The position numbers and the translations under genes are program-made. This document shows positions 1,387 through 34,869 of a stretch of 64,000 nt of DNA, piece after piece. Source of the DNA: a virus (lineage: Duplodnaviria > Heunggongvirae > Uroviricota > Caudoviricetes); IMG/VR virus record IMGVR_UViG_3300025117_000034, one strand, 5' to 3'. The notes below the pieces were generated by a model. It was not told where the DNA came from and searched no databases. It worked only from the letters and a program-made list of their open reading frames with translations. The stretch's first letter is position 1. Every line of letters begins with the position of its first letter.

Positions 1387-3348
1387 CTAGAAAAATAAGC
1401 TACTGGCCTTAGCCCTAGCTTTGTCCTTACTTTGAAACGGGTTAATACCAATGCTCGGAGATACCCATGCGTCACTTGTGTCCCCAAGTTTACTTATGCC
1501 CATTAGATTGTCAACAGAAGATCTTTCTAGCATCTCCCTTTGAAGTAGATTTGTTATAACACCAACTACTGCGTCACTTACGTCCTTGGTTCCGTCTGAC
1601 CCATCCCCATTTTTAATAGGGTGATCAACGTCGCCACGGGTCCTGTCGTGGATTAAGTTAAACCACTCAGTCCTGAATATACTATATAAGTAAAAGGAAA
1701 TTCTAGTGGAATACATAAGTTCGCATGCATCCATCCACACTGTGTCACTTCTATCCATACTGATCCGCTTGCTATCACCTATGGCCTTCTCAAAGAACTG
1801 CAGCATGCTTTCAGATTGGTTTTGGTCGAACGATACGCTGTTGATCTCAAAGTTAAACTTCTCCTTGAGAGCCATAATGAAGGACTTAATCTTCTCATAG
1901 TCAATTCTTGCAGGTGCTTTTGGTGGTTGAATACGTAGCATAAAGTCAATGTGTATAACAGGTAGTGAAAAGTCACCACCTCTAACTTGTTTAAAGTTTG
2001 ACACACAACCCATAGCTATACCAGTTGGATCCCCAGTAGCAGACAAGTCAACATGGATAACTCTCTTAGCACCTGGGAAATACTTCGGTGAATAGATCTT
2101 AGCCTTGGAGTTAGCTGCGTTGTCTGGGCAGTTACAGATCTTCTCTGGTATAAAGTAACCCTCTATCTCTTTGTAATCAGAGGTAGATACAACAATCTCC
2201 TGGGCTATGAAAGGGTGCTCACGGATAGGATCAATACAATTATTGAATGCCTTGATATCCGTGAACAACTTTGACACAGATGTTACAGACACACCACCAA
2301 TGTTCTGCAGTGATCTTACTGGATCATCAAGGAAGTCATTCTTGAAGTCAACTGGAATGAATAGGAACTTATGCTTAAGACTACCCTCAAGGTTATCTAC
2401 ATTATCTGCCAGTGACTTAGTATCCTCAGCCATAGTATCATAGCCGTAGGACACAAGGATATCATTAAGGTTTTTTGTATCCTCAATTACAGCTGGAACT
2501 CTGTCTTCATCACCAGCAAACACGCAGAACATTTCTTTGGAGTAATCATTAGGCTTTACATCCCAGATCTTTACGTTGACAAAGTAACATGTTCCAGGCT
2601 TAGCTTTTTCTCTGCGGTCATCTGTGAATGATGAATCATTAGTTGACGAAGATACAAGAATTGATATACCAGGATCTACACCATGCTTCATGAAACGGTT
2701 ACGTCTTCTGTCAGTGGTGTCCCTATAGATACGACGGGCCTTTTCAAGATCACCGGCTTTACCACCGCCACCTTCCTTCCAGAAGTTTACCTCATCGCAA
2801 AAGCACCCTAGAAGGTTTGTACCTAGAACTGATACAGAGTCAGAACCATGAACAAGGTTAACACCATTGGGGAACTGTGCGGCTGATGTTATGTCCATGT
2901 TTCTCTTGTAGTCATTTCTGAAGTATGGAGCATCATCAATGATTGCCATCAAGTCAGAGAACCCTGATAGCTTCGTCTGAGCAGATGTCACGGCTATGTA
3001 CCCAAAGAATAGTCGTGATGAATCTGGCACCTTAAAAAGTCTTTGGGGGTACTTGTAACAAGAGAGCTCGTATATCCTTCGTAAAAACACAATATAACCA
3101 AAAGTACTTTTTCCTGCACCCAAACTGCCGTCGATGAGCAGCTCAGAACATTTGGATTTTCTGAACTCCCTCATGTGTTCCTGCCAGAAAGGATAGAGCT
3201 TATCTGCATGGCTACCAATATAGTACGGGGATAGCCAGTCCTCAATAGGAACTACTTCTCGTATCTGCTCAGGGTCATCCTTGACCTCACGATGCTTCCT
3301 CTCTACCTTTAAAAGGCCAGAGAGGGCATCGGATAACTTGTCACTCAT
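1387..3348 (-). CDS. terL: Terminase large subunit
   Basis: Walker A GSLGAGKS, Walker B CFCDEVN, nuclease motifs IHVDLS..GDPTG, FDQNQS and KDVSDAV. Confidence 0.9.
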   Translation of the reverse strand: MSDKLSDALSGLLKVERKHREVKDDPEQIREVVPIEDWLSPYYIGSHADKLYPFWQEHMREFRKSKCSELLIDGSLGAGKSTFGYIVFLRRIYELSCYKYPQRLFKVPDSSRLFFGYIAVTSAQTKLSGFSDLMAIIDDAPYFRNDYKRNMDITSAAQFPNGVNLVHGSDSVSVLGTNLLGCFCDEVNFWKEGGGGKAGDLEKARRIYRDTTDRRRNRFMKHGVDPGISILVSSSTNDSSFTDDRREKAKPGTCYFVNVKIWDVKPNDYSKEMFCVFAGDEDRVPAVIEDTKNLNDILVSYGYDTMAEDTKSLADNVDNLEGSLKHKFLFIPVDFKNDFLDDPVRSLQNIGGVSVTSVSKLFTDIKAFNNCIDPIREHPFIAQEIVVSTSDYKEIEGYFIPEKICNCPDNAANSKAKIYSPKYFPGAKRVIHVDLSATGDPTGIAMGCVSNFKQVRGGDFSLPVIHIDFMLRIQPPKAPARIDYEKIKSFIMALKEKFNFEINSVSFDQNQSESMLQFFEKAIGDSKRISMDRSDTVWMDACELMYSTRISFYLYSIFRTEWFNLIHDRTRGDVDHPIKNGDGSDGTKDVSDAVVGVITNLLQREMLERSSVDNLMGISKLGDTSDAWVSPSIGINPFQSKDKARAKASSLFF

Positions 3349-5843: not shown

Positions 5844-6092
5844 CTAGATCTTTGCCTCAATAACCGGCTCAATAACTGGGTTGAGACTCTTGTAAACCTT
5901 GTACACACAACTGCACACAATTGGCTTACCCTTAGAGTAGCCATACACACCAGTTGCATTGCACTTCTTGCAGTTAATCTTACTAAGTTCCTTGCTTACC
6001 ATATGCTTACGAATATCATCAGCGTTATCCTTGATGAATTTCACAAGCTCCTCTGTCTCTACCTCAATAGGTGCACTCTCTGCATTGCTCAT
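5844..6092 (-). CDS. Small Zn-binding protein (CxxC...CxC)
   Basis: CKKCNATG...VCSC; AESAP near the N-terminus. Confidence 0.55.
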   Translation of the reverse strand: MSNAESAPIEVETEELVKFIKDNADDIRKHMVSKELSKINCKKCNATGVYGYSKGKPIVCSCVYKVYKSLNPVIEPVIEAKI

Positions 6093-14586: not shown

Positions 14587-15279
14587 CTATTGCAGATATG
14601 CGAGTATCACCTTTAGTTCAAGCGGTATCTCGCTATTTAAGTGTATAAGGTTGTTTGCAAAGTCCTTCGGTTTCTTCATACGTCCTGAGGCTTTGCGCAC
14701 AGATTTTCTATATCTTCCACGCATGTCTTGCTTTATGTCTTTGTACTTTGCTGCCTTCTCTAGAAACGTTAATAGTGATGCTAGAGAGTACGCTGCACCA
14801 AACTTATAACTACATGATAGATAGCTAGATATGAACTCCTCTTTGGACTTGGTGTACGTGTCAAACAAAGAGAAGATCTCATCCTTTGTTTCAAGTAGTT
14901 CTATTTTCCATTTCTTAAGTACTAATGATTCCTTGATGAACCTCTCGTAGGTCTTATTATCTAAATTTTTGATCAGCTCAAACTTCTTTGTGTACTTCTT
15001 ATGTATGGCCATACCCAGCTTTGTCTTGATATAGTTGATCATGATGTCTCTTGAGTCTAGATCTACATACCCAGAAGACACACCATCATTACATATTATG
15101 ATAAGATTGCTTTCTCTGTCCCTGTTGTCCTTGATAATTGACATTATGTAACCCATGTTAGGAGTGTAGTTTAGTACAGTATCATGACACGAAATGTCTG
15201 CTAATGTGTACGCTAGTAGACACTTTGGGTACAGGTAGGGTATGAAAGACTTATTGGATACCTTTATAAGCTCAATCAT
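14587..15279 (-). CDS. Hypothetical protein (clamp-loader accessory subunit candidate)
   Basis: 230 aa helical; function inferred from context only. Confidence 0.3.
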   Translation of the reverse strand: MIELIKVSNKSFIPYLYPKCLLAYTLADISCHDTVLNYTPNMGYIMSIIKDNRDRESNLIIICNDGVSSGYVDLDSRDIMINYIKTKLGMAIHKKYTKKFELIKNLDNKTYERFIKESLVLKKWKIELLETKDEIFSLFDTYTKSKEEFISSYLSCSYKFGAAYSLASLLTFLEKAAKYKDIKQDMRGRYRKSVRKASGRMKKPKDFANNLIHLNSEIPLELKVILAYLQ

Positions 15280-15424
15280 TGCCTACAACTAGCTCCAGCA
15301 GTCTCTTCTGAAAGGGTGCTCTGTTCGCACTCATGATGAGCTTAGTAGTAGCATACTCAACCTTTGAGCAGGACACTGGTGGAGCAGACTCAGCTTTGTA
15401 GTCTATAGTTTTTTCGTCGCTCAT
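15272..15424 (-). CDS. Unannotated 50-aa protein with ESAPP motif
   Basis: MSDEKTIDYKAESAPPVSCSKVEYATTKLIMSANRAPFQKRLLELVVGND; fills the gap and overlaps both neighbours. Confidence 0.6.
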   Translation of the reverse strand: MSDEKTIDYKAESAPPVSCSKVEYATTKLIMSANRAPFQKRLLELVVGND

Positions 15425-25435: not shown

Positions 25436-27853
25436 ATGAGAAGTCATGAACGTGCCCTCCTCCGCTTTATTCGTGAAGCGGAGGAGGCCGATTTTAATCA
25501 AGGTACTCCAGAATCAGCTCCCCCACTTCCGTATGATAGGGAGCCTGTGTTCATTGTAAACATCAAGGAGTACGATGAAGTAGAAGCAAACGATGAGAAA
25601 CACAACGGCATCTATGTTGGTGCAACTCCTGAAGATAATGCAAAACTAAAACAGATCCTCAAAGGCAAGCATGTACTGCAGGGTGACTTTGATACATCTA
25701 CCAGTAAGATTGTCTCCTTTGAGTTTAATAAACTTGCTAACCTAAAAATATATGCAGCACGTAAAAACTTTGAAGTTATAAAGGTAGACAAGGATAACTA
25801 CAATCCAGCTACAGCCAGGATTGCTATTGATCCTAAGTACTTGCGTGGCATGGCATCAGAGCTACGCAAGGATATCATTCAGACAGATAAAGAGGCTGGC
25901 ATTGTCACACCTGAGTCAGCAGTTGCTGCAGTACCAGCACAGGCCCCAGCTGAGAGTGCACCTTCACTGGTAACTGGTGATGCTAACACAGAGCCAGCTA
26001 GTGAAGAAGCAAAGATATTCCTTCAGGCTCTAAAGCTATTCCTTGGTAATGTTAAGTACGTTCCAGAGTCACGCTTTGTTGGCAGGAAGTTCACAAGCTA
26101 TATGTGTGAATGGTACAATGCACAGGCTGACAAGTGCTACTGTGACTTCCCTGACCCAACAAAGGCATCACATCGTTGTGGACTACCGGCTACCAAGTTG
26201 GCTATCTTTAAGTACTTGACACCTGCTAAGAAGTTCCACAGAGTTCCAAGTACTTTCTGTGACAAACACAATCAGGAGTTCATGGGTGAGGACTTTGTTA
26301 GCAGGTTTGAAGATCCAACCAAGATGTCTGCTCTTATCTTTGGTGAGCTTCAAGACAACAAGATCACCCCAACCTCTGCCCGTGGAATGACACCTGAGAT
26401 AGCTGCTAATATTAAGGCAGGTATTACTGAGACCACGCAAGGTGAGTCAGCACCTCCAGAGAGTGCCCTGCTTCAGCTTGCAGCGGCTGCTGAAGAGATG
26501 TGGACACCAGAACCAGTAGAGTACACAGGTGTTCGTCCAAGTGGCTCATTTGAGTCCCAGGCCCACCCAGCGATGATTGATGGTATCACATGGGATGCAT
26601 GGGTCAAGTTCCTCAATGGTAACCCAGACAAGATCAAGGTTGACATTCACTTGGAGGAAGCTATCACAGCTACCCCAGAGAACAAGAAACTCATTGCTGA
26701 CTACGTTAATGAGATCAGGGCTGCACGTGACAAAGCACCCCAGGACTTTGATCTGTCAACACTAAATGGTAAGACACCTGAAGAGCGTGTACAGATTGTG
26801 TACCAGCTGTACAACAGAGCTCGTAAGGTTAACACTAACATGTCACGCAATGTTGTCAACGCAATCAACAGTATGCTGCCAACTCTAAGTGAGGATAAGC
26901 AGACATACATTAAGAGCATGCTGAAACAGGTTAAGGCAGACTTCCTACGCCGTCATCCTGATTGGCTAGCCTATGTTCTTATGCTACTTGATCCAACTCT
27001 TGGTATGATGTACTTTGCTTATCATCATATCACCAAAGGTGAGAACGTTCAGGAGATTTGGTTTGCAACTCCTGAAGCCAGAGACCAGGCTTCTCCAGTA
27101 CTTGGTGGAGTTAAGGGATCACAGGCAAGCAATTATGCTTCTGACAAGTACCTTGTAACCCACGAGACTCGCAGTGAGTCCTCAAACACCAACAGTGGTT
27201 ACGGGTATCTTCTCCGGCTTCACTTCAAAGAGAGCAAGCAGCAGGAGCGTGGTAGCACTCTTGAGTTCAAGAAAGAGATTCGTGACCGCTTGAACAAGGT
27301 TAACCTACGCTATGGCGTTAACTACATTATGCCTGATAACAGGTCAATCAACAAGATGTACGGTGTGTGGCGTGATTCAATTACCGAGAACTGGCAGTTT
27401 GTTATCCGCTTTGGTACACAGGGTGAAACTGCTACCTCAGGAGCAAACAGGTTCTTCACAGACAATCCTGTTGGATCAACAAGATTTGGCTACCCAGTCG
27501 TAGCTATCTATCCAAATGATGGTCCAGGTGTTCTCCCGTCAGATCCTAAGTTTGTAATGATTTATGAGTATGGTAAAGATCTTGGTACTGAAGATATACA
27601 GAACGTAATCAAGAACATCATTACTCATATCAGCACTGAGTATAGACGTACTCCACAGCATAGCAAGGACAAGCTTAATGGAGATCCATACAAGCTGAAC
27701 TTGGATTTCTATGTTGACTCAACCACTTTGTCATTCAACCCACACAGCTTAAATGATCCAGTGTTCTTCAGACAGGATGCTCCTGCTGTGTCTTCAACTG
27801 CAGGTACCAACACACCACCTGCTCCAGAGTCTGCACCAGCTGGTACTCAGTAG
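25436..27853 (+). CDS. Large putative internal head protein with repeated ESAP motifs
   Basis: 805 aa; ESAP x4 plus ESAV and ESAL in P/A-rich linkers; Cys/His cluster near aa 235-280. Confidence 0.5.
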   Translation: MRSHERALLRFIREAEEADFNQGTPESAPPLPYDREPVFIVNIKEYDEVEANDEKHNGIYVGATPEDNAKLKQILKGKHVLQGDFDTSTSKIVSFEFNKLANLKIYAARKNFEVIKVDKDNYNPATARIAIDPKYLRGMASELRKDIIQTDKEAGIVTPESAVAAVPAQAPAESAPSLVTGDANTEPASEEAKIFLQALKLFLGNVKYVPESRFVGRKFTSYMCEWYNAQADKCYCDFPDPTKASHRCGLPATKLAIFKYLTPAKKFHRVPSTFCDKHNQEFMGEDFVSRFEDPTKMSALIFGELQDNKITPTSARGMTPEIAANIKAGITETTQGESAPPESALLQLAAAAEEMWTPEPVEYTGVRPSGSFESQAHPAMIDGITWDAWVKFLNGNPDKIKVDIHLEEAITATPENKKLIADYVNEIRAARDKAPQDFDLSTLNGKTPEERVQIVYQLYNRARKVNTNMSRNVVNAINSMLPTLSEDKQTYIKSMLKQVKADFLRRHPDWLAYVLMLLDPTLGMMYFAYHHITKGENVQEIWFATPEARDQASPVLGGVKGSQASNYASDKYLVTHETRSESSNTNSGYGYLLRLHFKESKQQERGSTLEFKKEIRDRLNKVNLRYGVNYIMPDNRSINKMYGVWRDSITENWQFVIRFGTQGETATSGANRFFTDNPVGSTRFGYPVVAIYPNDGPGVLPSDPKFVMIYEYGKDLGTEDIQNVIKNIITHISTEYRRTPQHSKDKLNGDPYKLNLDFYVDSTTLSFNPHSLNDPVFFRQDAPAVSSTAGTNTPPAPESAPAGTQ

Positions 27854-28092: not shown

Positions 28093-29799
28093 ATGTTAAA
28101 TAGGATGACAATGAACGAAGAACCTTGGTACTCTAAACTCAAACAAGCAAGTGCTTCTGATATGGAATCAATACTATCAGACAAGCACTCCTGTAAGTTT
28201 ATCTCTGAGAACATTGATCAGGTACCAAGTGAACTTCTTGAGGAAGCAACACTGCGTGACCTTCTAGCAAAGTCAAACTCTGATATATCATTTCAACACA
28301 GAGCACTAACAGTAAAACAACTCAATGATCTATTTGTGCAGGATAATAACTCACTGTCATTCATGGGACTTGGTAATGATAATTCACTAACGTTCTCCAT
28401 CACATCCAAGTCAACACCAGAAAATTCGTATACACAAAAACTAAGGTTGGCAAGTCTTGATGATATAGTTGATGACTACTTAACCAAGAACATTGATGTG
28501 CTTAAGCAGATAGTGTACGACGAGGAAGAGGAAGTAGATCCAGACAAACTGGTTGACGACCTGATTGAGCATGTCCTTGATGAAGCATCCAATGGTAACA
28601 TTGAGGTTGATTGTTCCTGTCCCTCACAACGTTTCCTGGGGTTCAGGCATTTTCTAAACCAGGACGGTGCACTGTACACATCTCCTGGTGGTTCAAGGTT
28701 GAGCACTGACTACTTTGACCCATCTAAAGTTACAGGCCCACGCAGCAAACCAATTGAGATACTCAGAGCTCCTCGTGACCGTAACCAGAACTATGTGAGC
28801 ACAGAGCCAGGACAGGCTCCAGTAAATATTGGATCAAAGGGTATTGTCTGTAAGCACCTGCACTTCCTGTTCACTAACTTTGCTGACAATCAGCCATACC
28901 GAGAATTCCTACTACGTGAGATAACAAAGCAAGCACACACCATATGGGTTATTATGGTGAAGAAGATTCGTGACCATATCAACGCTGCCCTTAAGCGTCC
29001 ACTGTCTGCCAAGGAGAAGCTGGAGCTCAGCGTCAGCCTCTCGTTCTTGTCAGACGATGAAGCACAGCAGAGGCTAGCTGAGCTTCAGGGTAAGATCCCG
29101 CAAGAGGACTATCAGGAGCTACTGAATAATCTAAATAGGTTTAGAGAGTTTCAAGCTCAGCAGCAGGAGAAACCCTTTGACCAGTCCCTGTTTTTTGTGC
29201 CAACAGATCTAATCCCTGTTGACACAAGCATTGATTTTCTTCAGACAGAAGTTCCACCTGTTGATACTTCAATTGACTTTCTACAGCCAGAAGTTCCACC
29301 AGTTGATACAAGCATTGACTTCTTTGATCAGGGTGTTGCCCCAGTTGATTCTAGCGAATTGTTACAACCATATGAACAGCAACCACCTATGCCTGGGGAG
29401 TCCGTTCCTCCAGCACCAGTGGAGACACAAGTACCTGAGCCAGCTGAAGTTGTGCAGCCAGAGAAGCCTGCTAAGGTAGCTAAGAAACAGAAGCATAAAG
29501 TTGTAACTCCAAAGGAATATGTAGATATGGTGAAGGGTATTGCTAATCTTCCACGTAACCAGCAAGGCAACAAACTGCAGGATCTAAGCAGGTATATTTC
29601 CCAGGATGCAATTGCAGAGATAGCTAGCCGTGTTAAGGACGTGAATAGGGAACGTGACTTTGATGCATTAGCAGACAGACTGGTTGGGATGAAAGATGAT
29701 GACAAGATAGCAGTGCTTAAGAATCTACAAGGTTTTGTTTCTCCTGAAGGTATTTCTAGTATACTAAGAAAGGTTGATGCACTAAAGGAGCGTGTATGA
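28093..29799 (+). CDS. SWIM-type Zn-finger protein with repeated linker
   Basis: VDCSCP...GIVCKHL; PVDTSIDF repeats; helical C-terminus. Confidence 0.6.
   Translation: MLNRMTMNEEPWYSKLKQASASDMESILSDKHSCKFISENIDQVPSELLEEATLRDLLAKSNSDISFQHRALTVKQLNDLFVQDNNSLSFMGLGNDNSLTFSITSKSTPENSYTQKLRLASLDDIVDDYLTKNIDVLKQIVYDEEEEVDPDKLVDDLIEHVLDEASNGNIEVDCSCPSQRFLGFRHFLNQDGALYTSPGGSRLSTDYFDPSKVTGPRSKPIEILRAPRDRNQNYVSTEPGQAPVNIGSKGIVCKHLHFLFTNFADNQPYREFLLREITKQAHTIWVIMVKKIRDHINAALKRPLSAKEKLELSVSLSFLSDDEAQQRLAELQGKIPQEDYQELLNNLNRFREFQAQQQEKPFDQSLFFVPTDLIPVDTSIDFLQTEVPPVDTSIDFLQPEVPPVDTSIDFFDQGVAPVDSSELLQPYEQQPPMPGESVPPAPVETQVPEPAEVVQPEKPAKVAKKQKHKVVTPKEYVDMVKGIANLPRNQQGNKLQDLSRYISQDAIAEIASRVKDVNRERDFDALADRLVGMKDDDKIAVLKNLQGFVSPEGISSILRKVDALKERV
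29215..29355 (+). repeat. 42-bp (14-aa) tandem repeat, about 3.4 units
   Basis: PVDTSIDFLQTEVP / PVDTSIDFLQPEVP / PVDTSIDFFDQGVA / PVDSS. Confidence 0.85.
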
Positions 29800-34491: not shown

Positions 34492-34869
34492 ATGTGGGAA
34501 CGTGACGTAATTAAGAATCTAAGATTGTTCCAGGAAGAGGATGTGCTGTCCTATTCTCCCTCTAAAGTAACCCCACCTGAGCAGCAGATCACAGACACTG
34601 CCCCAGAGTCAGCCCCACCTATTGACTTTGTTCCCGAGTTCCTTGATGCAGGCAAAGCAAAGGAGCTTGGTTTCACTGAAGCAGATGCAGACCCAGAGCA
34701 GCTGCGTATGGGCATTGAAGTCGAAACTGAGCACACGTCTAATCCCTTGCTGGCTAAGAAGATAGCTTTGGATCACCTCGCTGAGATCAAAGATTATTAT
34801 TCGCTTTTAAAGAATATGGAAGATGAAGCAAAGTCAAGGATGGCTCAACCGGAAACACCAAAACAATAG
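34492..34869 (+). CDS. DUF5661-like protein with ESAPP motif
   Basis: QLRMGIEVETEHT....AKKIALDHLAEIKDYYSLLKNME. Confidence 0.65.
   Translation: MWERDVIKNLRLFQEEDVLSYSPSKVTPPEQQITDTAPESAPPIDFVPEFLDAGKAKELGFTEADADPEQLRMGIEVETEHTSNPLLAKKIALDHLAEIKDYYSLLKNMEDEAKSRMAQPETPKQ

What the first reader, a model, noticed from the sequence alone, without database searches (positions are those of the whole stretch)
25436..27853. ESAP(P) peptide motif shared by unrelated proteins across the genome
Seen: exact ESAP at 25511, 25952, 26444 and 27827 (805-aa protein), 34606 (DUF5661-like), 6069-6080 (82-aa Zn protein, minus strand) and 15380-15391 (hidden 50-aa ORF, minus strand). Near-matches are ESAV 25913, ESAL 26459 and ESVPP 29398. 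Codons differ (GAA/GAG, TCA/TCT/AGT, GCT/GCA/GCC), so conservation is at the protein level. A rough composition estimate gives well under one chance hit in ~20,000 codons. Motifs sit in P/A-rich linkers or near termini. Known: T4-type prohead proteases cut after Glu. Inference: a cleavage, packaging or modification tag. Its presence in two genes of the replication block suggests use beyond head maturation.
Basis: partly seen in the sequence, partly recalled or inferred. Interest (0 to 1): 0.75.

Follow-up and report, generated by a model that had tools for sequence, protein, structure and literature searches.

The report
Private ESAP peptide tag in phage
The four-residue peptide Glu-Ser-Ala-Pro recurs far more often than chance in the flexible segments of seven unrelated proteins of an uncultured T4-type phage, so it is very probably a recognition tag, but whether a sugar-adding enzyme, a binding partner or a protease reads it is not settled.

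Summary
The window is part of a complete 139.6-kb T4-type phage genome. That genome has 11 in-frame ESAP in 7 unrelated proteins, against 0.54 expected. The other 23 orderings of E, S, A and P occur 0-2 times, apart from PESA, which overlaps the motif. One-residue variants are at background, and off-frame copies are absent. Serine uses both codon families, so the constraint is on the protein. The real motif is [A/P]-E-S-A-P-[P/S/A]. Genes outside the window act as an independent test: 3 more hits, all with the same flanks. All sites lie in Pro/Ala-rich linkers or within 26 residues of an N-terminus.

The reader of the motif is unresolved. The T4-type (S77) prohead protease is a poor fit. The capsid protein, portal and protease lack ESAP, and the capsid's probable cut site (LKTE|GLT) differs. 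The genome carries a glycosyltransferase/methyltransferase cluster, and ESAP resembles bacterial O-glycosylation sequons. I rank a serine-modification sequon first (about 0.3), then a docking motif, possibly for the phage's ubiquitin-like system (0.25), then cleavage (0.2).

No usable relatives exist, and DUF5661 homologues lack the motif. This scan has noted private linker motifs on other DNA (Omnitrophota giant proteins), but not ESAP.

The parts
25436..27853 (+). 805-aa orphan protein, the main carrier. ESAP at residues 26, 173, 337 and 798 in the window, plus residue 342 in the common haplotype.
   Evidence: No homologue in GenBank phages, IMG/VR, 5.8 billion proteins or 1.84 billion representatives. 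No Pfam or PHROG hit. It follows a 146-aa gene that has a late-type TTATACA element 37 nt before its start.
25511..25522 (+). ESAP site 1 (TPESAPP), residue 26 of the 805-aa protein
   Evidence: GAATCAGCTCCC
25952..25963 (+). ESAP site 2 (PAESAPS), residue 173. The variant ESAV lies 13 residues upstream at 25913.
   Evidence: It lies in a P/A-rich segment, residues 157-181.
26444..26470 (+). Tandem pair GESAPPESAP (residues 337 and 342). In the window the second copy reads ESAL because of a -1/+1 indel pair at 26469-26478.
   Evidence: The five-site form is the one seen in 19 contigs.
27827..27838 (+). ESAP site at residue 798, 4 residues before the C-terminus (APESAPAGTQ-stop)
34492..34869 (+). 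125-aa DUF5661 protein, with ESAP at residue 39 (window 34606-34617)
   Evidence: Pfam DUF5661 at residues 57-112. The AlphaFold model built on alignment A2 has residues 1-45 below pLDDT 50 and the domain at pLDDT 87-97, so the motif ends the disordered N-terminal arm. The homologues have no ESAP.
5844..6092 (-). 82-aa Cys-rich protein between the TOPRIM gene and the clamp-loader-like gene, with ESAP at residues 5-8 (window 6069-6080)
   Evidence: A strong GGAGG ribosome-binding site lies 7 nt before its ATG. Neighbours were identified.
15272..15424 (-). 50-aa ORF after the ligase-like gene, with ESAP at residues 12-15 (window 15380-15391). The motif's codons overlap the TGA of the upstream gene.
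   Evidence: Whether this is a separate gene or a frameshift extension is undecided.
28093..29799 (+). 568-aa protein with the near-match ESVPP (window 29398) in a P-rich linker. It is not counted as a site.

Best explanation
ESAP, more exactly [A/P]-E-S-A-P-[P/S/A], is a short linear recognition motif kept by selection and private to this phage lineage. It is displayed in disordered Pro/Ala-rich linkers and terminal tails of seven otherwise unrelated proteins, and it is read by one dedicated factor. I hold that general statement at about 0.8.

The most likely specific mechanism is that the invariant Ser is an acceptor for O-linked modification, with ESAP as the sequon of a phage-encoded cytoplasmic glycosyltransferase. 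The acidic residue before Ser and the Ala-Pro after it would position the serine. Multiple and tandem sites in the 805-aa protein would give a mucin-like decorated linker and C-terminal tail.

Shown here: the enrichment, its order-specificity, the protein-level constraint, the disordered context, and the presence of glycosyltransferase and methyltransferase genes. Inferred: that any of these enzymes acts on protein, and that Ser is the modified atom.
For: Ser is invariant and Thr is never used (ETAP count 0).

All 11 sites are in P/A/S/E/T-rich segments or within 26 residues of an N-terminus. For the DUF5661 protein, the motif sits in the low-confidence arm just before a confidently folded domain.

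The genome encodes a 770-aa double GT4 protein (Glycos_transf_1 E 1.7e-38; GT4-conflict). It also has a cluster with Glyco_transf_34/Nucleotid_trans (37 bits, above the cut-off), a weak GNT-I-like protein and two or three methyltransferases. That cluster lies directly downstream of the 1338-aa ESAP carrier, on the same strand.

No thymidylate-synthase-family hydroxymethylase is present, so the classical substrate for DNA glycosylation is not evident.

Known sequons look alike. The Bacteroidota motif is (D)(S/T)(A/I/L/V/M/T) (PMC8550257). The glycosylated C-terminal region of Neisseria AniA carries AASAP repeats (PMC5542605).

There is a phage precedent for unrelated proteins being glycosylated by phage enzymes. 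Mycobacteriophage capsid and tail-tube C-termini are glycosylated (cited in PMC12619734). In Che8 both proteins end in GS.
Against: No glycan can be seen in sequence data. The glycosyltransferases could act on DNA, lipid or polysaccharide, and the GT4-conflict family is not known as a protein transferase.

The known bacterial sequons are read in the periplasm by oligosaccharyltransferases, not by cytoplasmic enzymes. They use Asp where this motif has Glu.

The main virion proteins (capsid, sheath, tube) lack ESAP. Four carriers (the 82-aa, 50-aa and 77-aa proteins and the JAB protease) sit in replication or ubiquitin-like blocks where virion shielding makes no sense.

The GNT-I and methyltransferase hits are below Pfam cut-offs. 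No co-occurrence of motif and enzymes in other genomes could be tested, because no usable relatives exist.
Confidence: 0.3

Rival explanations
1. ESAP is a docking motif, a short linear peptide bound non-covalently by one hub domain. The most interesting candidate hub is the phage's own ubiquitin-like conjugation cassette: its double MIB/HERC2 protein (described from memory as an SH3-like fold) or its E2-like protein. ESAP proteins would then be clients, substrates or regulators of that system.
For: The motif has the anatomy of a classical short linear motif. It has four fixed residues and lies in disordered regions. It occurs at extreme termini (residue 5 of the 82-aa protein, 4 residues from the end of the 805-aa protein). 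It occurs in tandem copies, and one tandem copy is dispensable in a natural variant.

Two of the seven carriers flank the cassette. The order is 77-aa (AESAPPDDDE), MIB_HERC2 x2 (which has PVADSAPAQ 19 residues before its first domain), a 258-aa E2-like protein, ThiF E1, JAB (AESAPPETD between the JAB domain and a Zn ribbon), and an Apyc1-like MBL. About 0.2 carriers would be expected in a seven-gene block.

Acidic residues follow the motif in most carriers.

An analogy exists. P(S/T)AP late domains bind the E2-variant domain of TSG101 (PMC2172688). From memory, HIV p6 reads PEPTAPPEE.
Against: No binding was tested. Single-chain folding tools could not model complexes. The MIB/HERC2 link rests on two genes. 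The E2-like protein keeps candidate cysteines, so it is not obviously a UEV-type variant. The other five carriers have no visible tie to the cassette.
Confidence: 0.25
2. ESAP is a cleavage site, cut after Glu (E|SAP). The enzyme would be the T4-type S77 prohead protease, with the carriers as packaged internal or ejected proteins carrying N-terminal propeptides. Alternatively it would be another, unidentified site-specific protease that processes the 805-aa protein like a polyprotein.
For: An S77 protease, a T4-type portal and a Gp23-type capsid protein are present. T4, phiKZ, 201phi2-1 and SPN3US proteases all cut after Glu. SPN3US prefers Ser at P1' (PMC5694885, PMC10052503).

The first ESAP lies within residues 5-39 in five of the seven carriers, like T4 propeptides. 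Four carriers are as small as T4 internal proteins (50-125 aa). In the 805-aa protein the sites delimit pieces of about 147, 164 and 456 residues. The 1338-aa carrier sits in the head-gene block.
Against: The capsid protein, portal, protease and scaffold-like proteins have no ESAP. The capsid's invariant Glu70 site reads LKTE|GLT in this phage and KEE|S, DEE|T, TE|A in relatives, so it shares only Glu and a small P1' residue.

The conserved part of ESAP is on the primed side, and P3/P4 are variable, unlike the L/I-x-E or A-x-E motifs. Clipping 5 residues from an N-terminus, 7 from a C-terminus, or cutting twice 5 residues apart has no obvious purpose.

Several carriers lie in early or replication blocks with no late-type promoter element nearby. 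The HslV-like protein has no HslU partner among its scanned neighbours.
Confidence: 0.2
3. There is no dedicated reader. ESAP is a linker idiom of this genome: old copies of one linker module or a favoured flexible sequence, plus some luck.
For: Spread over 7 proteins is by itself no more than the best 4-mer of a real proteome shows (T4: PNVK, 7 in 7 proteins, P 1.8e-6). Five of the 11 copies are in one protein. The motif is absent from DUF5661 homologues and from distant relatives' head regions. One copy was lost in a natural variant.
Against: Order-specificity argues against it: none of the 19 permutations that cannot overlap the motif occurs more than twice. Local-composition expectation is 0.6. 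ESAP occurs 8 times in 597 linker residues, where the next unrelated 4-mer occurs 3 times.

The flanks are conserved, and the motif was replicated in the half of the genome not used to find it. Synonymous codons are scrambled, including TCN against AGY serine, so the copies are old or independent yet still exact. Twenty-six other P/A-rich linker segments, including those of the portal and the protease, do not use it.
Confidence: 0.15
4. The constraint is on the nucleic acid (a DNA or RNA site such as GANTC, GTGCAC or a pause signal), and the peptide is a by-product.
For: Six copies contain GANTC (five GAGTC, one GAATC). Two copies are identical 12-mers, GAGAGTGCACCT.
Against: All 11 copies are in the coding frame and none is truly off-frame. 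Ser is encoded by two unrelated codon families. Every third position varies in line with genome codon usage.
Confidence: 0.02

Closest known systems
Cleavage motifs and capsid-targeting propeptides of T4-type prohead proteases (T4 gp21 L/I-x-E; phiKZ gp175 S/A/G-x-E; SPN3US gp245 A-x-E with Ser at P1')
   Same: Both are short motifs containing Glu, shared by unrelated phage proteins, often near N-termini and sometimes in several copies per protein. This phage has an S77 protease of that family.
   Different: Those motifs are defined on the unprimed side (P3-P1) and are too degenerate to be enriched. ESAP is defined on the primed side and is sharply enriched. The core head proteins here lack it, and the capsid's probable cut site differs.
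Bacterial general O-glycosylation sequons: Bacteroidota (D)(S/T)(A/I/L/V/M/T) and the Ser/Ala/Pro-rich acceptor regions of Neisseria (AASAP repeats of AniA)
   Same: The pattern is acidic residue, Ser, Ala, with Pro nearby. Sites lie in low-complexity linkers and C-terminal tails, with several per protein and across many unrelated proteins.
   Different: Those systems act in the periplasm through lipid-linked glycans and an oligosaccharyltransferase. Here the proteins are cytoplasmic phage proteins, Glu replaces Asp, Thr is never used, and no oligosaccharyltransferase was seen.
Mycobacteriophage virion glycosylation (Che8, Corndog, Myrna; Freeman et al. 2023, cited in PMC12619734)
   Same: Phage-encoded glycosyltransferases sit next to structural genes. 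Unrelated phage proteins share a short Ser-containing acceptor: Che8 capsid and tail tube both end in GS.
   Different: That acceptor is at the extreme C-terminus of the two major virion proteins. Here the motif is internal or N-terminal, is absent from the capsid, sheath and tube, and is present in non-structural proteins.
P(T/S)AP late-domain motif bound by the UEV (E2-variant) domain of TSG101
   Same: Both are viral four-residue S/T-A-P motifs in disordered, Pro-rich, acidic contexts, read by a domain of the ubiquitin machinery. This phage encodes E1, E2-like, JAB and MIB/HERC2 proteins, and two carriers flank them.
   Different: The first Pro is replaced by Glu. The host is a prokaryote without ESCRT-I. 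This is an analogy only.

Membership tests
Substrate set of a T4-type (S77) prohead protease | A gp21-family protease is encoded with a T4-type head module | tested here: met
   Peptidase_S77 E 9e-15, Portal_T4 E 3e-23. Gp23-family capsid protein.
Substrate set of a T4-type (S77) prohead protease | The same motif marks the maturation sites of the core head proteins (capsid protein, scaffold, the protease itself) | tested here: not met
   No ESAP in the capsid protein, protease, portal, adaptor or acidic scaffold-like proteins. The invariant Glu70 site of the capsid reads LKTE|GLT. The cut itself is inferred, not shown.
Substrate set of a T4-type (S77) prohead protease | Carriers are prohead or virion proteins and are cut after Glu | not testable with these tools
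   This needs virion proteomics. Gene positions are mixed: late block, head block, replication block and ubiquitin-like cassette.
O-glycosylation sequon | An invariant hydroxyl residue in an exposed, low-complexity context | tested here: met
   Ser is invariant in 11 of 11 sites. Eight sites lie in P/A/S/E/T-rich segments and three within 26 residues of an N-terminus. The N-terminal arm of the DUF5661 protein is disordered.
O-glycosylation sequon | A matching glycosyltransferase is encoded or available | tested here: inconclusive
   A double GT4 protein and a GT34-like protein score above cut-off, and there is a weak GNT-I-like protein. Their acceptor (protein, DNA or glycan) is unknown. No hydroxymethylase gene is present.
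O-glycosylation sequon | The motif fits a described sequon | tested here: not met
   The Bacteroidota motif needs Asp before S/T (PMC8550257), and here it is Glu. Only 2 DSAP exist, which is background. The resemblance is not identity.
O-glycosylation sequon | A glycan is attached to the Ser | not testable with these tools
   This needs mass spectrometry.
Short linear motif (docking type) | Three to ten residues with few fixed positions, in disordered regions, arising independently in unrelated proteins | tested here: met
   Carriers share no domain. Codons differ.
Short linear motif (docking type) | Conservation in orthologues, or co-variation with a reader domain | tested here: inconclusive
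   DUF5661 homologues lack it, but the two neighbourhoods examined share no other gene with this phage. The 805-aa, JAB and 1338-aa proteins have no phage homologues. The population is nearly clonal.
Short linear motif (docking type) | A defined binding domain | not tested
   The candidates (MIB_HERC2 x2, the E2-like protein) are named only by gene neighbourhood.
P(T/S)AP late domain | Pro at the first position and a TSG101-type UEV reader | tested here: not met
   The first position is Glu in all 11 sites. PSAP occurs twice, which is background. The E2-like protein keeps cysteines.

The most novel reading that the evidence does not exclude
ESAP(P) is the substrate or partner code of a phage-encoded ubiquitin-like conjugation system. 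On this reading the double MIB/HERC2 protein, or the E2-like enzyme, docks on ESAP peptides. It thereby selects which phage proteins are tagged, or are protected by the JAB protease, which itself carries the motif. This would be a linear-motif-based targeting rule for a ubiquitin-like system outside eukaryotes, comparable to degrons or to P(T/S)AP-UEV recognition.
Probability: 0.12. Interest if true: 0.85.

Novelty: new variant of a known kind. Interest (0 to 1): 0.5.

Why it matters
Proteome-wide peptide tags in phages are known almost only as loose prohead-protease motifs and T4 capsid-targeting sequences. Here a sharp motif that is easy to mutate marks a defined set of seven proteins in a phage that also carries two unusual toolkits: a ubiquitin-like conjugation cassette and a multi-enzyme glycosylation cluster.

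Whichever enzyme reads ESAP, the motif gives a direct handle. It names the candidate substrates, it predicts the exact residue to look at, and a 10-residue reporter peptide would be enough to assay candidate readers in E. coli without culturing the phage. If it is the ubiquitin-like system, it would reveal how that system chooses targets.

Tried and rejected
**Homologue searches for the 805-aa protein.** All came back empty: tblastn against GenBank phages, IMG/VR peptide scan, 5.8-billion-protein word search, exhaustive HMMER over 1.84 billion representatives, PDB sequences, ESM Atlas, Pfam and PHROGs. Conservation could therefore not be tested for the main carrier.

**AlphaFold of the 805-aa protein.** Run without an alignment it was useless (pLDDT 34), and I draw nothing from it.

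**Relatives of the phage.** I searched with the tail sheath and the capsid protein. The nearest long contigs share only the capsid protein (24-33% identity) and the protease. They show no ESAP enrichment in about 7,000 residues each, which is too distant to be informative.

**JAB and 1338-aa proteins.** Neither has a match in GenBank phages.

**DUF5661 neighbours.** There is no synteny with this phage, so absence of the motif there says little.

**Explanations tested and rejected.**
- Compositional bias.
- A DNA-level site.
- Recent duplication, because codons are scrambled.
- HslVU-type proteolysis, because no HslU was seen.
- Late-promoter association of the early-block carriers, which was not found.
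- Polyproline stalling, because only 6 of 11 sites have PP and E-S would be unexplained.

**Literature.** No paper contains 'ESAP motif'. The Freeman et al. 2023 paper could not be read.
Full report
**What the window is.** The window is bases 926-64925 of a complete 139,571-bp virus record with direct terminal repeats. It is a T4-type myovirus. It has a Gp23-family capsid protein, a T4-type portal, a Peptidase_S77 prohead protease, a tail sheath, a gp19-like tube and a baseplate hub. It is very isolated: the nearest capsid proteins on long contigs are 24-33% identical, and GenBank phages reach about 27%.

**The observation.** The window has 7 ESAP against 0.26 expected.

I laid the whole genome in the script box and called genes crudely, taking the longest non-overlapping ORFs: 250 ORFs, 44,627 residues. 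The genome holds 11 ESAP in 7 proteins against 0.54 expected (Poisson 1.8e-11). The additional carriers are:
- a 399-aa JAB-domain protein (genome 76830-78029, residue 300);
- a 77-aa protein (80966-81199, residue 17);
- a 1338-aa protein in the head-gene block (118471-122487, residue 1209).

The eleventh site is inside the window. The record reads GESAPPESAPASAAAAA where the window reads GESAPPESALLQLAAAA. The difference is a one-base deletion and a one-base insertion ten bases apart. The five-site form is the one found in 19 contigs from three sources, and the window's form is found in one.

**Is it more than chance?** Several independent controls say yes.
- The other 23 orderings of E, S, A and P occur 0-2 times. 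PESA occurs 6 times only because it overlaps the motif.
- Every single-substitution neighbour (xSAP, ExAP, ESxP, ESAx) occurs 1-2 times.
- An expectation built from local composition, with the motif's own residues left in, is still about 0.6.
- Among the 34 P/A/S/E/T-rich segments of the proteome (597 residues), ESAP occurs 8 times against 0.34 expected. The next unrelated 4-mers occur 3 times.
- All copies are in the coding frame.
- Serine is encoded by TCN six times and AGY five times, and all third positions vary as in the genome at large. The constraint is therefore on the peptide, and the copies are not recent duplicates.
- The flanks are also constrained. Ala or Pro precedes the motif in 10 of 11 sites, and Pro, Ser or Ala follows it in 10 of 11.
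- The genes outside the window were not used to form the hypothesis. They contain three hits against 0.29 expected, and all three have those flanks (P 3e-8 for the hexamer).

One control cuts the other way. In phage T4 the best 4-mer also reaches seven proteins (PNVK, P 1.8e-6). The protein spread alone is therefore not decisive. The case rests on the combination of controls above.

**Anatomy.** Eight sites lie in Pro/Ala-rich segments. The other three lie at residues 5, 12 and 26 of their proteins. For the DUF5661 protein an alignment-based AlphaFold model puts residues 1-45 below pLDDT 50 and the domain at 87-97. The motif (residues 39-42) therefore closes a disordered arm just before the fold. 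In the 805-aa protein the sites lie at residues 26, 173, 337/342 and 798 of 805. The first site lies within 39 residues of the N-terminus in five carriers. Acidic residues often follow the motif. The carriers share no domain and are scattered:
- two in the replication block: after the TOPRIM gene and after a ligase-like gene;
- two in the late block: the 805-aa orphan and the DUF5661 protein;
- two at a ubiquitin-like cassette;
- one in the head block.

**Conservation.** This could be tested only for DUF5661. Nine homologues that are 63-72% identical in the domain have a conserved helical N-domain and no ESAP. This phage's protein has a shorter Pro-rich arm there instead. The two homologue neighbourhoods I examined share no other gene with this phage. 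The 805-aa, JAB and 1338-aa proteins have no detectable phage homologues. The motif is therefore private to this lineage as far as can be seen.

**Which reader? The prohead protease.** The family is present, and its known members cut after Glu. SPN3US even prefers Ser at P1' (PMC5694885, PMC10052503). The N-terminal bias and the small size of four carriers recall T4 internal proteins. But the capsid protein, portal, protease and acidic scaffold-like proteins have no ESAP. An alignment of the capsid protein with five relatives shows one invariant Glu, 33 residues before the conserved VSVQPM block. That is where a T4-type maturation cut is expected, and it reads LKTE|GLT here. A protease that needed S-A-P on the primed side would not cut there. 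I therefore give cleavage about 0.2. The HslV-like gene has a DnaB-like helicase and an SNF2 helicase among its neighbours and no HslU among those scanned.

**Which reader? Glycosyltransferases.** Two features of the rest of the genome offer other readers. The first is sugar transfer. A 770-aa protein with two GT4 domains lies near the head genes. A cluster lies directly downstream of the 1338-aa carrier on the same strand. It holds a GT34/nucleotide-sugar transferase, a weak GNT-I-like protein and two or three methyltransferases. The genome has no thymidylate-synthase-family hydroxymethylase, so the usual substrate for DNA glycosylation is not apparent. ESAP resembles the Bacteroidota sequon (D)(S/T)(A/I/L/V/M/T) (PMC8550257). 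It also resembles the AASAP repeats of the glycosylated tail of Neisseria AniA (PMC5542605). Mycobacteriophages show that phage transferases can decorate unrelated virion proteins through a shared short acceptor: Che8 capsid and tube both end in GS (literature cited).

**Which reader? The ubiquitin-like cassette.** Earlier notes of this scan described the cassette (e1-1678561, e1-1678562, e1-1678566). I confirmed ThiF, MIB_HERC2 x2, a weak JAB hit and an Apyc1-like MBL. Two carriers flank it, and the MIB/HERC2 protein has a DSAP just before its first domain. From memory, MIB/HERC2 domains have an SH3-like fold, and P(S/T)AP motifs are read by an E2-variant domain (PMC2172688). A docking role is therefore plausible, but it is untested.

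**Verdict.** The motif is real and selected (about 0.8). The mechanism is open. My ranking is:
- Ser-modification sequon, 0.30;
- docking motif, 0.25 (of which about 0.12 is for the ubiquitin-like system);
- cleavage, 0.20;
- no dedicated reader, 0.15;
- nucleic-acid constraint, 0.02.

It is a new variant of a known kind of thing, a proteome-wide peptide tag. The tetrapeptide has no literature record in the library searched. The motif makes the question directly testable with short reporter peptides.

Noticed in passing
window 26469-26478 and 22688: The window differs from the IMG/VR record by one SNP and by a -1/+1 indel pair ten bases apart. The pair shifts four codons of the 805-aa gene and then restores the frame. 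The unshifted form is the common one (19 contigs against 1). This is either a compensated frameshift in a rare strain or an assembly error in a C-run.
   Followed up: yes
genome 112521-115832 (L004:7596-10907, minus strand) and 132838-135150 (L007:12838-15150): There is a cluster of a GT34/nucleotide-sugar transferase, a weak GNT-I-like protein and two to three methyltransferases, next to structural genes. There is also a 770-aa protein with two GT4 domains (GT4-conflict family). The genome has no thymidylate-synthase-family hydroxymethylase. None of the five genes of the 112521-115832 cluster matches a PHROG family; the double GT4 protein does (phrog_2170, glycosyltransferase).
   Followed up: partly
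L007:4820-6301 (capsid protein), residue 70: Across six Gp23-family capsid proteins of this deep lineage the only invariant residue in the N-terminal 90 is a Glu, 33 residues before VSVQPM (LKTE|GLT here). It is the probable maturation cut of the S77 protease.
   Followed up: partly
window 15272-15424 (-): The 50-aa ORF starts 35 nt inside the ligase-like gene, and its ESAP codons overlap that gene's TGA. It could be a separate coupled gene or a frameshift extension that would put ESAP in a C-terminal linker of the ligase-like protein.
   Followed up: no
genome 79897-81497 (L002:14972-16572, minus strand): The MRLSDL leader noted earlier in this scan starts both the 93-aa acidic protein and the MIB/HERC2 protein (at an internal Met of my ORF call). 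The 77-aa ESAP gene sits between them.
   Followed up: partly
H18, Vibrio phage vB_VpaM_VPs20 28291-28446: The DUF5661 domain occurs inside a protein annotated as DUF2213-containing in a Vibrio phage (from memory, DUF2213 is a head-scaffold/protease-type family). This hints that DUF5661 is a head-associated module.
   Followed up: no
L009 2108-7315 (also L010, L011): Distant relatives carry a 1,689-1,735-aa protein with PolyA_pol domains beside the head genes. That region shows strongly recurrent Cys motifs (SCGC 11 times, FGRL 8 times).
   Followed up: no
genome 93501-94526 (L003:8576-9601, minus strand): A 341-aa YdcK beta-solenoid/bactofilin-like repeat protein accounts for the other top-ranked 4-mers of the proteome (AWVY, QVSG, SGNA).
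   Followed up: yes
window 28093-29799, 1387-3348; genome 135788-139389: No large terminase subunit was recognised by Pfam or PHROGs among the large proteins scanned (568, 653, 538 and 614 aa). The terminase of this phage may be very divergent.
   Followed up: no
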